From Escherichia phage vB_EcoS_ESCO30, in sequence record NC_106513.1: a stretch of DNA of 64,000 bases. The stretch is one strand, 5' to 3'. Shown piece by piece: positions 37,063-43,969 of the stretch. The notes under the pieces were generated by a model. It worked only from the letters and a program-made list of their open reading frames with translations. It did not search any database and was not told the origin of the DNA. The translations under genes were made by a program, and so were the position numbers. Position 1 is the first letter of the stretch. The number at the start of each line of letters is the position of its first letter.

Positions 37063-37140
37063 GGTTCTCAAGCTCATATGGTATGAGCACCCGGCTCATA
37101 ACCGGAAGGTACGTAGGTTCGAATCCTCGGGGAGCCACCA
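37063..37140 (+). tRNA. tRNA with anticodon CAT (Met or Ile-lysidine type)
   Basis: Acceptor GGTTCTC/GGGAGCC, D-stem GCTC/GAGC, anticodon loop CTCATAA, T-loop TTCGAAT but T-stem only 3 bp; CCA encoded. Confidence 0.5.
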
Positions 37141-37544: not shown

Positions 37545-37646
37545 TACCTGTGAAACTAAAAGATTATTATATTGGTTGGTTTGTGGGACTAGTAGTAGGA
37601 TTTTCACTAGGCTATAATATGTATCAACTAATAAACTGATTACACG

Positions 37647-37723
37647 GGGGGTGTAATCGAATTGGCATAGGTACTGGACTTAAAATTCAGGTTTTGTGGG
37701 TTCGAATCCCACCACCCCTACCA
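37647..37723 (+). tRNA. tRNA, anticodon TAA (Leu-like), type uncertain
   Basis: Acceptor GGGGGTG/CACCCCT, anticodon stem CTGGA/TTCAG with loop CTTAAAA, T-arm GTGGG-TTCGAAT-CCCAC, CCA encoded; D-stem only 3 bp. Confidence 0.5.
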
Positions 37724-37738
37724 AATTAAGGAAATAAG

Positions 37739-41318: not shown

Positions 41319-41394
41319 TGCGGGTGGGAGGCATAGAGTTCTTCTTAGTCTCATAAGCTAAGTAAGTCCAGGGCAGTACTGGAACCCGCTACCA
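41319..41394 (+). tRNA. tRNA-like gene with anticodon CAT and non-canonical T-loop
   Basis: Anticodon stem-loop TTAGT-CTCATAA-GCTAA, T-arm TCCAG-GGCAGTA-CTGGA (no TTC), CCA encoded; one U-U mismatch at acceptor end. Confidence 0.45.
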
Positions 41395-41412
41395 ATTTCA
41401 AGAAAAACGCAG

Positions 41413-41441
41413 TTGCTTAATGCTTAATTTCTTGTTATAAT
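41413..41441 (+). promoter_or_regulatory. strong early promoter
   Basis: -35 TTGCTT 41413-41418, 17 bp, -10 TATAAT 41436-41441. Confidence 0.7.
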
Positions 41442-41679
41442 ATTTATATAAATTGATGAGGAGAAATCCTCATCATAGTTCACTAAGGTATTAGCTCGAC
41501 CTAGGACTGGCTGCCAAAAAGCACGATCCCTACTATTTGGGAGAAGTTCTAGATTAGTCCACTAGATTCAGCGGCAACTGAATAGTGTATTGGGTTTGCG
41601 AGATGACGCAGTTCCTTCCGCTCGAAGCGAAGGTGCTGTAGTTACGCCGAGCTAATAGCCTTAGTAAACTAAAGAATTT

Positions 41680-41754
41680 GGGCGAATAGTGTCAGCGGGA
41701 GCACACCAGACTTGCAATCTGGTAGGGAGGGTTCGAGTCCCTCTTTGTCCACCA
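41680..41754 (+). tRNA. tRNA-Ala (anticodon TGC)
   Basis: Acceptor GGGCGAA/TTTGTCC, anticodon stem CCAGA/TCTGG with loop CTTGCAA, T-arm GAGGG-TTCGAGT-CCCTC, CCA encoded. Confidence 0.75.
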
Positions 41755-41759
41755 AATTC

Positions 41760-41844
41760 GGGGCTATGCTGGAACTGGTAGACAATACGGCCTTAGATTC
41801 CGTAGCTTAAATGCGTGGGAGTTCGAGTCTCCCTAGCCCCACCA
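41760..41844 (+). tRNA. tRNA-Leu (anticodon TAG), class II
   Basis: Acceptor GGGGCTA/TAGCCCC perfect, anticodon stem TACGG/CCGTA around ...CTTAGAT..., long variable arm, T-arm GGGAG-TTCGAGT-CTCCC, CCA encoded. Confidence 0.65.
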
Positions 41845-41861
41845 ACTCATAGGATTTATGT

Positions 41862-42533: not shown

Positions 42534-42623
42534 GGAAGATAGGACGTAGTGGTACGTAACTGGTCTTGAAAACCAGCCCGCTGTAGTGATACGGTGATGG
42601 TTCGACTCCATTATCTTCTGCCA
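42534..42623 (+). tRNA. tRNA-Ser (anticodon TGA), class II
   Basis: Acceptor GGAAGAT/ATCTTCT, D-stem ACGT/ACGT, anticodon stem CTGGT/ACCAG with loop CTTGAAA, long variable arm, T-arm GATGG-TTCGACT-CCATT, CCA encoded. Confidence 0.7.
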
Positions 42624-42639
42624 ACTTATAGGGTAATAT

Positions 42640-42822
42640 ATGTCTTTAACGAAAACTGTGAAGGTTACACTAACTGATGGCACAGAGTTTAGTGCACAAA
42701 TAACCTTACTAGAAGACGGTTATTGGGAAGTATATCTTCCACACGTTAATTCTACTGGTAGAGGATGGACTCAACAACAGGCTATTGTTGATGCTTTAAA
42801 TGAGGCTTCCGCTGGTTTATAA
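42640..42822 (+). CDS. hypothetical protein
   Basis: 60-aa ORF. Confidence 0.45.
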   Translation: MSLTKTVKVTLTDGTEFSAQITLLEDGYWEVYLPHVNSTGRGWTQQQAIVDALNEASAGL

Positions 42823-43189
42823 AAATTCTTGGAATATGCCGGAATTGGTAGACGGGACTGCCCAATAGGTTTACTAGGAACATCCACTCCTAGAAATATA
42901 CCTTAAAAGCGGTTGAGTTAAATGGTCTAACTCATGAAGGTTCAAGTCCTTCTGCTTCTTGATACATCTATGGCTCAAAGTGTAACGGTGCTATTTGATG
43001 CTCTTGGAAAGACTTTCCCGACAGGCGTTCGGGGGTAAGCTTCTGAGGCTAGAATAGAAGAGTTTCTGAGAGCCGCCACAATTGAAAATTCGTACTCGTC
43101 TTGAGCTGCGTGCAATAGGAGATAACTTGATTAGTATTCTAGAACATGCTAATTGAGGATGGTTTCGCTAACCCTGCGAGTTTTCAATT

Positions 43190-43266
43190 GTGGCTATATC
43201 ATAATTGGTTAATGATCCTGATTGTGAATCAGGCCTATGTGGATTCGAATTCCACTAGCCACCCCA
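43190..43266 (+). tRNA. tRNA-His (anticodon GTG)
   Basis: Acceptor GTGGCTA/TAGCCAC perfect, D-stem TCAT/ATGA, anticodon stem CCTGA/TCAGG with loop TTGTGAA, T-arm GTGGA-TTCGAAT-TCCAC, CCA encoded. Confidence 0.8.
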
Positions 43267-43291
43267 AATTAACTTAAATAGGAAATAAAAT

Positions 43292-43489
43292 ATGGCTGAT
43301 TTCTGCAAACAATGCTCCATTGATATGTGGGGCAGAGATACTGGTGATCTTTCTGGTTTGATTACAGAAGCCGAAGTCAAAGAAGGTTATGGTGCAGTTG
43401 TGATTTGCGAAGGATGCGGAGTTATTCGAGTAGATCATGAAGGCAAACGTTTAGAAGAACCGGAAAATTTAGGAGAAACAAATGAGTAA
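43292..43489 (+). CDS. hypothetical Cys-containing protein
   Basis: 65-aa ORF with CKQC...CEGC pairs. Confidence 0.45.
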   Translation: MADFCKQCSIDMWGRDTGDLSGLITEAEVKEGYGAVVICEGCGVIRVDHEGKRLEEPENLGETNE

Positions 43490-43893: not shown

Positions 43894-43969
43894 GCGGTTA
43901 AGCACACGGGTTGTGTCGCAGGCCTTCCAAGCCTCGCTGAGTAGGGTTCGATTCCCTCTAGCCGCTCCA
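43894..43969 (+). tRNA. tRNA-Gly (anticodon TCC)
   Basis: Acceptor GCGGTTA/TAGCCGC, D-stem CACA/TGTG, anticodon stem AGGC/GCCT with loop CTTCCAA, T-loop TTCGATT, CCA encoded. Confidence 0.7.

What the first reader, a model, noticed from the sequence alone, without database searches (positions are those of the whole stretch)
42823..43189. Unresolved tRNA-like elements in a 365-bp ORF-free gap of the tRNA cluster
The gap holds a Leu-tRNA-like 5' signature GCCGGAATTGGTAGAC (42838-42853), a hairpin CTAGGA...TCCTAG (42874-42893) and a strong T-arm-like GAAGG-TTCAAGT-CCTTC (42936-42952). I could not assemble them into canonical cloverleaves; no acceptor partner fits. They may be non-canonical tRNAs, tRNA pseudogenes or other small RNAs. 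Val, Lys and several other isoacceptors are missing from my hand-built set and may reside here.
Basis: seen in the sequence. Interest (0 to 1): 0.45.

Follow-up and report, generated by a model that had tools for sequence, protein, structure and literature searches.

The report
Known phage T5 stable RNA genes
The "empty" 365-base gap in this T5-like phage's tRNA cluster holds three small stable RNA genes already annotated in phage T5 (tRNA-like RNA1, RNA I and RNA III), not the missing tRNAs, and what these RNAs do is still unknown.

Summary
The window is a T5-like phage (Tequintavirus, 99% identical to OSYSP and IrisVonRoten). ARAGORN and Rfam call no tRNA in the gap.

The gap is not unexplored. 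It matches three misc_RNA genes annotated in T5 (NC_005859, AY692264) and Salmonella phage 5 (AJ604531):
- rna1, "tRNA-like stable RNA with unknown functions", 42828-42971
- rnaI, 42972-43078
- rnaIII, 43083-43188, followed directly by tRNA-His

All three motifs belong to one molecule, RNA1. It is a tRNA-Leu-type cloverleaf whose anticodon loop is replaced by a ~47-nt extension. Across 30 distinct sequences, 95% of cells pair and 14 pairs show compensatory changes.

RNA I has a 5-bp terminal stem followed by an encoded GCCA. RNA III is closed by a conserved 18-20-bp duplex. Its annotated ends leave a 2-nt 3' overhang, which I infer to be an RNase III cut.

T5's tRNA-Val and tRNA-Lys match nothing in the window, so they are not hidden here.

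Verdict: a real feature, already known, function unknown.

The parts
42828..42971 (+). RNA1 gene (homologue of T5 rna1/T5s03, 'tRNA-like stable RNA with unknown functions'), 144 nt
   Evidence: blastn against the T5 st0 rna1 feature: 1-144 maps to 42828-42971, 93.75% identity. Annotated in AJ604531, AY692264 and NC_005859. My covariance model scores 167 bits here.
42830..42836 (+). RNA1 acceptor stem, 5' strand (UGGAAUA). Pairs with 42953-42959 (UGCUUCU). Position 1-72 is U.U in 29 of 30 sequences. This copy also has an A.C mismatch at 42834/42955.
   Evidence: Columns 7-13 with 131-137 of alignment A2. Double compensatory changes at columns 9/135 and 11/133.
42839..42855 (+). RNA1 D-arm of tRNA-Leu type: CCG-GAAUUGGUAGA-CGG, preceded by U8 G9 (42837-42838).
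   Evidence: Invariant in 30 sequences, so neither supported nor contradicted by covariation. RNAalifold prefers an alternative UGCCG/CGGUA hairpin. After RNA1 homologues, the model's best-scoring hits include genuine tRNA-Leu genes (L032; window 41754-41852 at 37 bits and 37641-37731 at 31 bits), alongside the long Leu-like elements of other phages.
42857..42913 (+). RNA1 extended 'anticodon' arm. It has a 5-bp stem ACUGC/GCGGU (42857-61 with 42909-13), an inner helix AGGU/ACCU (42867-70 with 42900-03), and an apical hairpin CUAGGA-ACAUCCAC-UCCUAG (42874-42893). There is no 7-nt anticodon loop.
   Evidence: helix 3 is 99.3% paired with 3 of 5 pairs changed on both sides; helix 4 has 2 of 4; helix 5 has 4 of 6. 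The loop ACAUCCAC is identical in 29 of 30 sequences.
42914..42934 (+). RNA1 long variable-arm-like hairpin UGAGUUA-AAUGGUC-UAACUCA, with an invariant loop
   Evidence: Helix 6 is 99% paired; column pair 96/108 appears as AU, UA and CG.
42936..42952 (+). RNA1 T-arm GAAGG-UUCAAGU-CCUUC (canonical T-loop pattern UUCRANU)
Evidence: Helix 7 is 100% paired.
42972..43078 (+). RNA I gene (homologue of T5 rnaI/T5s02), 107 nt. The 5' end GGCUC pairs with GAGCC, followed by G and an encoded CCA 3' end.
   Evidence: blastn against T5 rnaI: 97.2% over 1-107. The terminal stem is kept as GGGCC/GGCUC in Pectobacterium phage DU_PP_V. Interior helices show covariation between the Tequintavirus and Epseptimavirus versions.
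43079..43082 (+). 4-nt spacer CAAU between the RNA I CCA end and the RNA III 5' end
   Evidence: Gap between the annotated rnaI and rnaIII features in three records, mapped.
43083..43188 (+). RNA III gene (homologue of T5 rnaIII/T5s01), 106 nt
   Evidence: blastn against T5 rnaIII: 100% over 1-106. Folds with a long terminal stem; -46.8 kcal/mol and z = -5.35 for 43068-43200.
43075..43094 (+). Upper strand of a 20-bp duplex (GCCACAAUUGAAAAUUCGUA). It starts at the RNA I discriminator and pairs with 43175-43194.
   Evidence: six sequence classes, 96.7% paired, 10 of 20 pairs changed on both sides, against 32-43% paired when slid.
43175..43194 (+). Lower strand of the duplex (UGCGAGUUUUCAAUUGUGGC). 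It ends at tRNA-His position +5. The annotated RNA III 3' end (43188) and tRNA-His 5' end (43189, U at -1) lie inside it.
43189..43266 (+). tRNA-His(GUG), annotated in T5 as 78 nt including U at -1. This is the downstream boundary of the module.
   Evidence: 100% identical to the T5 tRNAH feature. ARAGORN and Rfam call it from 43190.

Best explanation
The gap encodes three small non-coding RNAs already annotated for phage T5 and its relatives: RNA1 (42828-42971), RNA I (42972-43078) and RNA III (43083-43188). They sit head to tail on the tRNA strand, directly upstream of tRNA-His.

SHOWN:
- The identity and boundaries, by homology to annotated records.
- RNA1 is a structured mimic of a class II, tRNA-Leu-type cloverleaf. 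It has an acceptor stem, a Leu-type D-arm, a long variable-type hairpin and a canonical T-arm. A ~47-nt helical extension with a nearly invariant ACAUCCAC loop replaces the anticodon loop. It has no encoded CCA.
- RNA I has a 5-bp terminal stem followed by G-CCA.
- RNA III is enclosed by an 18-20-bp duplex that bridges the RNA I 3' tail and the first five bases of tRNA-His. The duplex is kept by compensatory changes even in phages where the interior is replaced by unrelated sequence.

INFERRED:
- All three are cut out of one early polycistronic transcript, probably started at the P13b-like promoter (41394-41477), by host tRNA-processing enzymes.
- RNase P cuts 5' of RNA I, which also makes the RNA1 3' end.
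- RNase III makes a staggered cut in the duplex. The annotated ends 43083 and 43188 leave exactly a 2-nt 3' overhang. [quoted passage not shown]
- On this reading RNA III is mainly the stable by-product of a processing hairpin.
- RNA1 cannot decode, because it has no anticodon loop. It acts, if at all, as a tRNA mimic (decoy, binding partner or processing/stability element).
- RNA1 is dispensable for growth in at least one natural phage.
For: Identity:
- The region is 99% identical to Tequintavirus phages.
- Homologous stretches are annotated as rna1, rnaI and rnaIII in AJ604531, AY692264 and NC_005859.
- Feature-by-feature blastn gives the window coordinates.

RNA1 structure:
- My cloverleaf, tested on 30 distinct sequences, is 95.1% paired against 37-52% for slid controls. 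It has 14 pairs with double changes, and 0 of 500 shuffles reach this.
- RNAalifold independently recovers every helix except the D-stem.
- The model built from it scores 167 bits here. After RNA1 homologues, its best hits include genuine tRNA-Leu genes.

RNA I:
- Terminal stem plus GCCA is conserved and compensated in DU_PP_V.
- Interior covariation.

Duplex:
- 96.7% paired, with 10 of 20 pairs compensated across six classes.
- The interior of the slot differs completely between classes.
- Fold z-score is -5.35.

Single operon: no convincing promoter or terminator lies inside the gap. The only terminator-like hits are the RNA1 T-arm and part of RNA III. P13b homology lies upstream.

Dispensability of RNA1: Gostya9 goes from tRNA-Ser-CCA through AATAAT straight into RNA I.

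Restricted distribution: only T5-like contigs in IMG/VR, none in 185,579 bacterial genomes.
Against: - I could not read the primary papers behind the GenBank annotation. I therefore cannot say whether the ends of RNA1 and RNA III, or U-1 of tRNA-His, were measured on RNA or drawn from the DNA sequence. If drawn, the 2-nt overhang argument is circular.
- The annotated RNA1 5' end (C42828) is 2 nt upstream of cloverleaf position 1, and position 1-72 is a U.U mismatch. This is not what a canonical RNase P cut would give.
- The duplex offers only 6-8 bp on the tRNA-His side of the proposed cut, which is short for E. coli RNase III.
- Salmonella phage SPLA5a has a related tRNA-His with U at -1, but its upstream hairpin is 4 nt away from +1. 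So the duplex geometry is not universal for U-1 tRNA-His genes.
- Single-sequence folds of RNA1 and RNA I are not unusually stable (z = -1.2 and -1.3).
- This window's RNA1 has a weakened acceptor stem.
- No function is shown for any of the three RNAs, and no targets complementary to the invariant loops were found in the window.
Confidence: 0.85

Rival explanations
1. The gap hides one or more functional decoding tRNAs (for example the missing Val or Lys isoacceptors) in non-canonical form.
For: RNA1 has tRNA-type acceptor, D and T arms and a weak Rfam tRNA match of 21.9 bits.
Against: No ARAGORN or Rfam call. The place of the anticodon loop is taken by a 47-nt structured extension. The bases at the would-be anticodon positions vary between phages: CCAAUAG, CCGAAUAG, CUAAAAG, CUAAAGG, CUAACGA. 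There is no encoded CCA, unlike the neighbouring tRNAs. T5 tRNA-Val and tRNA-Lys match nothing in the window and lie elsewhere in relatives.
Confidence: 0.02
2. The elements are decaying tRNA pseudogenes or spacer DNA with no function of their own, conserved only because the phages are closely related.
For: RNA1 is absent from Gostya9. The RNA III slot is freely replaced. This window's RNA1 has a mismatched acceptor stem. T5 deletion mutants of the tRNA region are viable (papers cited).
Against: Compensatory changes keep every RNA1 helix across Tequintavirus, Epseptimavirus, Sugarlandvirus and Pectobacterium phage DU_PP_V, while two loops stay nearly invariant. A decaying pseudogene would not do that. 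The RNA I terminal stem and the duplex are also compensated. The T5 records call them 'stable RNA'.
Confidence: 0.07
3. The gap encodes small proteins, as several GenBank records annotate ('hypothetical protein').
For: ORFs of 25-46 aa exist. OSYSP, GreteKellenberger and others annotate CDSs here.
Against: The ATG at 42970 gives 22 aa here and 59 aa in Epseptimavirus. A 7-nt indel and a 1-nt deletion (L030) break the frame. The OSYSP CDS 43146-43277 overlaps tRNA-His. Substitutions follow base-pairing, not codons.
Confidence: 0.03
4. RNA1 is a tRNA-Leu gene interrupted by an intron that is spliced out to give a working tRNA.
For: The Leu-type D-arm and class II architecture, with the insertion lying exactly in the anticodon loop. 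From general knowledge, bacterial tRNA-Leu(UAA) genes are a classic home of group I introns.
Against: The insertion is about 47 nt, far below any self-splicing group I intron. No Rfam intron or ribozyme match appears even at E<=10. Enterobacteria have no tRNA splicing endonuclease (general knowledge). The flanking 'loop' bases are not conserved as an anticodon. The discriminator is U rather than the A73 that E. coli LeuRS requires (general knowledge).
Confidence: 0.01

Closest known systems
Phage T5 rna1 / rnaI / rnaIII (NC_005859 locus tags T5s03, T5s02, T5s01; also AY692264 and AJ604531)
   Same: Same genes: 93.8%, 97.2% and 100% identity. Same order, strand and neighbours (small ORF upstream, tRNA-His downstream).
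   Different: This copy's RNA1 pairs a T5-type 5' acceptor strand with an AKFV33/phage-5-type 3' strand, giving an A.C mismatch.
Class II tRNA-Leu
   Same: 7+2 spacing from acceptor to D-arm. D-arm UG-CCG-GAAUUGGUAGA-CGG almost identical to tRNA-Leu. A long extra hairpin in the variable-arm position. A canonical T-arm. After RNA1 homologues, the RNA1 model's best hits include true tRNA-Leu genes.
   Different: No anticodon loop, which is replaced by a 47-nt extension. U.U at 1-72, U at the discriminator position, no encoded CCA, and a 7-bp/7-nt 'variable' hairpin larger than usual. Fails ARAGORN and the Rfam threshold.
Phage T4 species 1 and species 2 RNAs (rnaC, rnaD)
   Same: Small stable RNAs of unknown function encoded inside a phage tRNA cluster next to a homing endonuclease gene. 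rnaC also ends in a T-arm plus acceptor-like 3' strand.
   Different: No detectable homology. The RNA1 covariance model gives no hit on rnaC or rnaD; its best T4 hit is 8.4 bits elsewhere.
RNase III processing stems (T7 early mRNA sites, rRNA operon spacer stems, T4 tRNA precursor; named from general knowledge)
   Same: A continuous 18-20-bp duplex formed by distant segments of a precursor. The annotated product ends are staggered by 2 nt with a 3' overhang.
   Different: Cleavage has not been demonstrated here. The stem would define a tRNA 5' end at -1, which is not a known role of RNase III.
Long tRNA-Leu-like genes in unrelated phage contigs (IMG/VR loci L026, L018, L045, L029)
   Same: Same Leu-type D-arm signature, a T-arm, a long closing stem, location in tRNA clusters, and not called by ARAGORN or Rfam.
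   Different: 173-193 nt, with different internal hairpins and loop sequences. They score only 17-40 bits with the RNA1 model, so this is convergent or very distant design, not the same family.

Membership tests
T5 stable RNAs rna1 / rnaI / rnaIII | Sequence homology over the full length of each annotated feature | tested here: met
   93.75%, 97.2% and 100% identity over 144, 107 and 106 nt
T5 stable RNAs rna1 / rnaI / rnaIII | Synteny: small ORF or tRNA-Ser(UGA), then rna1, rnaI, rnaIII, then tRNA-His, all on the same strand | tested here: met
T5 stable RNAs rna1 / rnaI / rnaIII | Accumulation as stable RNA species in infected cells | not testable with these tools
   Rests on the wording of the GenBank notes ('stable RNA'). 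The primary papers are not in the library.
Canonical tRNA (Rfam RF00005 / ARAGORN) | Score at or above the family threshold, or a gene call | tested here: not met
   No ARAGORN call. No Rfam gathering hit. Best match is 21.9 bits against 29.
Canonical tRNA (Rfam RF00005 / ARAGORN) | Acceptor stem, D-arm and T-arm in cloverleaf register | tested here: met
   RNA1 model with covariation. The acceptor has U.U at 1-72 in 29 of 30 sequences.
Canonical tRNA (Rfam RF00005 / ARAGORN) | 5-bp anticodon stem closed by a 7-nt loop with a conserved anticodon | tested here: not met
   The stem is present (99.3% paired) but encloses 47 nt of further structure. The flanking bases vary.
Canonical tRNA (Rfam RF00005 / ARAGORN) | 3' CCA (encoded in the neighbouring tRNAs of this cluster) | tested here: not met
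   RNA1 is followed by UGAUACAUCUAU. RNA I does end in an encoded GCCA.
tmRNA | tRNA-like domain plus tag reading frame, as detected by ARAGORN | tested here: not met
   No tmRNA called. No Rfam tmRNA hit.
Group I intron-containing tRNA-Leu | Insertion with a group I intron core (roughly 200 nt or more) in the anticodon loop | tested here: not met
   The insertion is about 47 nt. There is no intron family hit at E<=10.
T4 rnaC / rnaD | Sequence and structure similarity | tested here: not met
   The RNA1 covariance model finds nothing at T4 70908-71171.
RNase III substrate | About two turns of uninterrupted double helix in the precursor | tested here: met
   A 20-bp duplex, 43075-94 with 43175-94, compensated in six classes.
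RNase III substrate | Product ends staggered to give a 2-nt 3' overhang | tested here: inconclusive
   The annotated ends 43083 and 43188 fit exactly, but I could not verify that they were measured on RNA.
RNase III substrate | Cleavage dependent on the rnc gene | not testable with these tools
   Needs an experiment.
RNase P substrate (RNA I) | Helix whose 3' strand is followed by an unpaired RCCA | tested here: met
   GGCUC/GAGCC followed by G-CCA. Conserved, and compensated as GGGCC/GGCUC in DU_PP_V.

The most novel reading that the evidence does not exclude
The conserved 18-20-bp duplex between the RNA I 3' tail and tRNA-His is an RNase III site that pre-empts RNase P. Its staggered cut would create the tRNA-His 5' end one nucleotide upstream of +1 (U-1). 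This would give the phage tRNA-His the extra 5' nucleotide that HisRS needs, even though U-1 cannot pair with C73. RNA III and its unrelated replacements would then be only the excised hairpin. Separately, RNA1 and the similar long Leu-like RNAs of other phages could be tRNA-body decoys against host tRNA-directed defence nucleases.
Probability: 0.25. Interest if true: 0.55.

Novelty: already known. Interest (0 to 1): 0.22.

Why it matters
For the scan, this closes the finding. The gap is explained by genes annotated in the reference T5 genome, and the supposedly missing tRNAs are not hidden there.

It also shows that most modern T5-like genome records leave these RNAs unannotated or cover them with spurious "hypothetical proteins".

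Scientifically, the function of these RNAs is a small but old open question, like that of T4 species 1 and 2 RNAs. The covariation-backed structures and the conserved duplex give concrete, cheap experiments. Recent work shows that the T5 tRNA region counters retron and PARIS defences, which makes non-decoding tRNA mimics in that region worth testing.

Tried and rejected
- Hidden Val or Lys tRNAs: blastn of the T5 tRNA-Val and tRNA-Lys features against the whole window gave nothing.
- tmRNA, group I intron, riboswitch or any known RNA family: nothing at Rfam gathering thresholds, nor at E<=10.
- Homology to T4 rnaC/rnaD: no covariance-model hit.
- Host or prophage homologues: 0 hits for the RNA1 two-loop pattern in 185,579 bacterial and archaeal genomes.
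- Antisense targets of the two nearly invariant RNA1 loops within the window: only the self-matches, at chance frequency.
- Thermodynamic signal: single-sequence folds of RNA1 and RNA I are unremarkable. Only RNA III plus its duplex stands out.
- Literature: five full-text searches and several paper look-ups found no open paper describing RNA1, RNA I or RNA III. Glukhov et al. 2018 on T5 tRNA-region deletions is not held.
- A wider family for the long Leu-like RNAs of other phages: two motif scans found only the same 2-3 contigs.
- A tRNA-like reading of RNA I beyond its terminal stem and CCA: no convincing D or T arm.

Full report
WHAT THE WINDOW IS. The stretch 42600-43300 is 99% identical to Escherichia phages OSYSP and IrisVonRoten. 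It has relatives in more than 560 Demerecviridae records, so the window comes from a T5-like phage (Tequintavirus). ARAGORN finds 22 tRNA genes on the + strand between 32.8 and 45.3 kb, and Rfam finds 21.

CHECK OF THE OBSERVATION.
- GCCGGAATTGGTAGAC at 42838-42853
- CTAGGA...TCCTAG at 42874-42893
- GAAGG-TTCAAGT-CCTTC at 42936-42952

The gap runs from the stop codon of a 60-aa ORF (42822) to tRNA-His (43190), and it holds only short ORFs. Neither ARAGORN nor Rfam calls a tRNA, tmRNA or any other family there. With relaxed thresholds there is only a sub-threshold tRNA match at 42892-42960 (21.9 bits against 29), in a register I later rejected.

WHAT IT IS. A search of the phage collection showed the gap is conserved in about 500 records. 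One record, AJ604531 (Salmonella phage 5 tRNA gene region), annotates the matching stretch. It carries three misc_RNA genes:
- rna1, "tRNA-like RNA with unknown functions"
- rnaI, "stable RNA with unknown functions"
- rnaIII, "stable RNA with unknown functions", followed directly by tRNA-His

The same three features are in the T5 st0 genome AY692264 and in the T5 RefSeq record NC_005859 as T5s03, T5s02 and T5s01. The other T5 record, AY587007, and most recent T5-like genomes leave the stretch blank or place "hypothetical proteins" on it.

blastn of each T5 feature against the window gives these coordinates:

| Feature | Window coordinates | Identity to T5 |
|---|---|---|
| rna1 | 42828-42971 | 93.75% |
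| rnaI | 42972-43078 | 97.2% |
| rnaIII | 43083-43188 | 100% |
| tRNA-His (78 nt) | 43189-43266 | 100% |

The 367-nt gap is therefore fully accounted for by 144 + 107 + 4 + 106 nt, plus a few bases after the stop codon.

RNA1. I assembled 30 distinct RNA1 sequences. They come from Tequintavirus, Epseptimavirus, Klebsiella phage Sugarland and Pectobacterium phage DU_PP_V. I then tested a hand-built cloverleaf with these parts:
- Acceptor stem: 42830-36 with 42953-59
- U8 and G9
- tRNA-Leu-type D-arm: CCG-GAAUUGGUAGA-CGG
- A 5-bp stem in the anticodon-stem position: 42857-61 with 42909-13
- A 7-bp/7-nt hairpin in the variable-arm position: 42914-34
- A canonical T-arm: 42936-52

The 5-bp stem does not close a 7-nt loop. 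It encloses an internal loop, a 4-bp helix (42867-70 with 42900-03) and the hairpin CUAGGA-ACAUCCAC-UCCUAG.

The test results were as follows:
- 95.1% of cells form standard pairs, against 37-52% when partners are slid.
- 14 pairs show changes on both sides.
- No shuffle out of 500 reaches the observed values.
- RNAalifold, run blind, recovers every helix except the invariant D-stem, for which it prefers an alternative hairpin.
- The two hairpin loops, ACAUCCAC and AAUGGUC, are nearly invariant.

This phage combines the T5-type 5' strand GGAAUA with the UGCUUC 3' strand of the AKFV33/phage-5 type. The result is one A.C and two G.U pairs. Relatives have matched pairs: GGAAUA/UAUUCC or UGUUCC, GAAGUA/UACUUC, GGAGUA/UACUCC.

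A covariance model of RNA1 scores 167 bits here. After RNA1 homologues, its best hits include genuine tRNA-Leu genes (59.5 bits in locus L032; 37 and 31 bits in the window). This supports the tRNA-Leu likeness. The model finds nothing on T4 rnaC or rnaD.

RNA1 cannot be a decoding tRNA, for three reasons. It has no anticodon loop. The bases at that position differ between phages. And no CCA is encoded.

RNA1 is restricted to T5-like phages. Pattern scans hit only ~100-120-kb T5-like contigs in IMG/VR and nothing in 185,579 bacterial genomes. It is precisely missing from phage Gostya9, where tRNA-Ser-CCA is followed by AATAAT and then RNA I. It is therefore not essential.

RNA I. Its 5' GGCUC pairs with GAGCC, followed by G and an encoded CCA. 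This is an acceptor-stem-plus-RCCA end of the kind RNase P recognises (general knowledge). In DU_PP_V the stem is GGGCC/GGCUC, a compensated version. The interior differs between Tequintavirus (107 nt) and Epseptimavirus (100 nt) but keeps its helices, for example CCCGA/UCGGG against CCUGG/CCAGG. That structure was derived from the same alignment, so the support is only moderate. I found no convincing D or T arm in RNA I.

RNA III AND THE DUPLEX. RNA III is closed by a long stem. The stem in fact begins at the RNA I discriminator (43075) and ends at tRNA-His +5 (43194). It is 20 bp, and the region folds with z = -5.35.

The slot between RNA I and tRNA-His holds at least five unrelated interiors in different phages: 106 nt, about 57 nt, about 22 nt, about 100 nt and about 125 nt. 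The closing duplex is always present. It is 96.7% paired, with 10 of 20 pairs changed on both sides, against 32-43% paired for slid controls.

The annotated RNA III 5' end (43083) pairs with 43186, and its 3' end is 43188. That leaves a 2-nt 3' overhang, which is the signature of RNase III (general knowledge). The same cut would leave CAAU on RNA I, to be trimmed back to CCA. It would also start tRNA-His at U-1, exactly as the T5 records annotate it.

This reading is my inference. It depends on the annotated ends having been measured on RNA, which I could not check. Proteus phage 2 has no RNA I or RNA III, but it has an 11-12-bp hairpin whose 3' strand also runs through -1 to about +3 of tRNA-His. 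Salmonella phage SPLA5a has U-1 too, but its hairpin ends 4 nt before +1. So the rule is not general.

TRANSCRIPTION. A homologue of T5 promoter P13b lies at 41394-41477, followed by the fourth T5 stable RNA, rna2H, at 41489-41660. Inside the gap there are no promoter-like sites on the + strand. The only terminator-like matches are the RNA1 T-arm and part of RNA III. The next promoter-like site is at about 44465. The three RNAs are therefore most likely part of one early polycistronic tRNA transcript. This too is an inference.

RIVALS.
- Hidden Val or Lys tRNAs are excluded. There is no match to the T5 genes anywhere in the window, and in relatives they lie upstream of tRNA-Ala.
- Coding is excluded by non-conserved frames.
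- An intron-bearing tRNA-Leu is excluded by the insertion's size and the lack of any intron match.
- Simple decay is contradicted by covariation and the invariant loops. However, RNA1's dispensability and the replaceable RNA III interior show that selection acts on particular parts only.

FUNCTION. None is known. Searches for sequences complementary to the RNA1 loops in the window gave only chance-level matches. Recent papers show that the T5 tRNA region protects against retron and PARIS nucleases through specific tRNAs. A non-decoding tRNA mimic could be a decoy, but nothing here tests that.

VERDICT. New here, at the level of inference, are the covariation-supported RNA1 cloverleaf with an extended anticodon arm, the compensated duplex that frames the RNA III slot, and its fit to an RNase III cut.

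Noticed in passing
window 43894-43969: A tRNA-Gly(UCC) gene, 100% identical to T5 tRNAG1, is missed by both ARAGORN and Rfam.
   Followed up: partly
window 37063-37137: A tRNA with anticodon CAU (Met/Ile2 type) is found by Rfam (40.3 bits) but not by ARAGORN. It lies directly after tRNA-Ser(GCU).
   Followed up: partly
window 41394-41660: The other apparently empty gap, between tRNA-Pro and tRNA-Ala, holds a homologue of T5 promoter P13b (41394-41477) and the 172-nt stable RNA rna2H (41489-41660, 98% identical to T5). The fMet-Lys-Val tRNA block that T5 has upstream of this promoter has no counterpart at this position: the window goes from tRNA-Pro (ends 41312) to the promoter in about 80 nt, and T5 tRNA-Lys and tRNA-Val match nothing in the window.
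   Followed up: partly
window 43189-43194: tRNA-His has U rather than G at position -1, opposite C73. The same holds in Pectobacterium phage DU_PP_V, Proteus phage 2 and the unrelated Salmonella phage SPLA5a. How a -1 nucleotide would be kept, and whether HisRS needs it here, is unclear.
   Followed up: partly
L011 742-863 and L048 2110-1986 (- strand): Some Epseptimavirus genomes carry an extra ~110-120-nt insert between RNA1 and RNA I. This stretch of the cluster seems to accept small structured inserts like cassettes.
   Followed up: no
L055 (Escherichia phage Gostya9) 680-705: RNA1 is cleanly absent: tRNA-Ser(UGA)-CCA, then AATAAT, then RNA I. This is a natural knock-out that could be used for phenotype tests.
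   Followed up: yes
L026 2474-2649 (-), L018 1663-1835 (+), L045 13873-14065 (+), L029 3716-3898 (+): Phage contigs unrelated to T5 (the identified ones are 80, 111 and 194 kb long) carry 173-193-nt genes with the same tRNA-Leu-type D-arm, a T-arm and long closing stems. In L026 and L018 they sit next to tRNA genes. Neither ARAGORN nor Rfam calls them. L026, L018 and L045 share internal motifs with each other. This may be an undescribed kind of long tRNA-like RNA.
   Followed up: partly
L045 11234-11702: A GOLLD RNA (Rfam RF02032, 168.5 bits) lies about 2 kb upstream of the long Leu-like element on the same viral contig.
   Followed up: no
window 43146-43277: Phage OSYSP annotates a 43-aa 'hypothetical protein' here that overlaps RNA III and tRNA-His. 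GreteKellenberger annotates a 59-aa CDS over RNA I. Both look like annotation artefacts.
   Followed up: partly
L051 (Proteus phage 2) about 766-845: An unannotated tRNA-Phe(GAA)-like gene ending in GCACCA lies upstream of two hairpins and tRNA-His. This identification was made by eye only.
   Followed up: no
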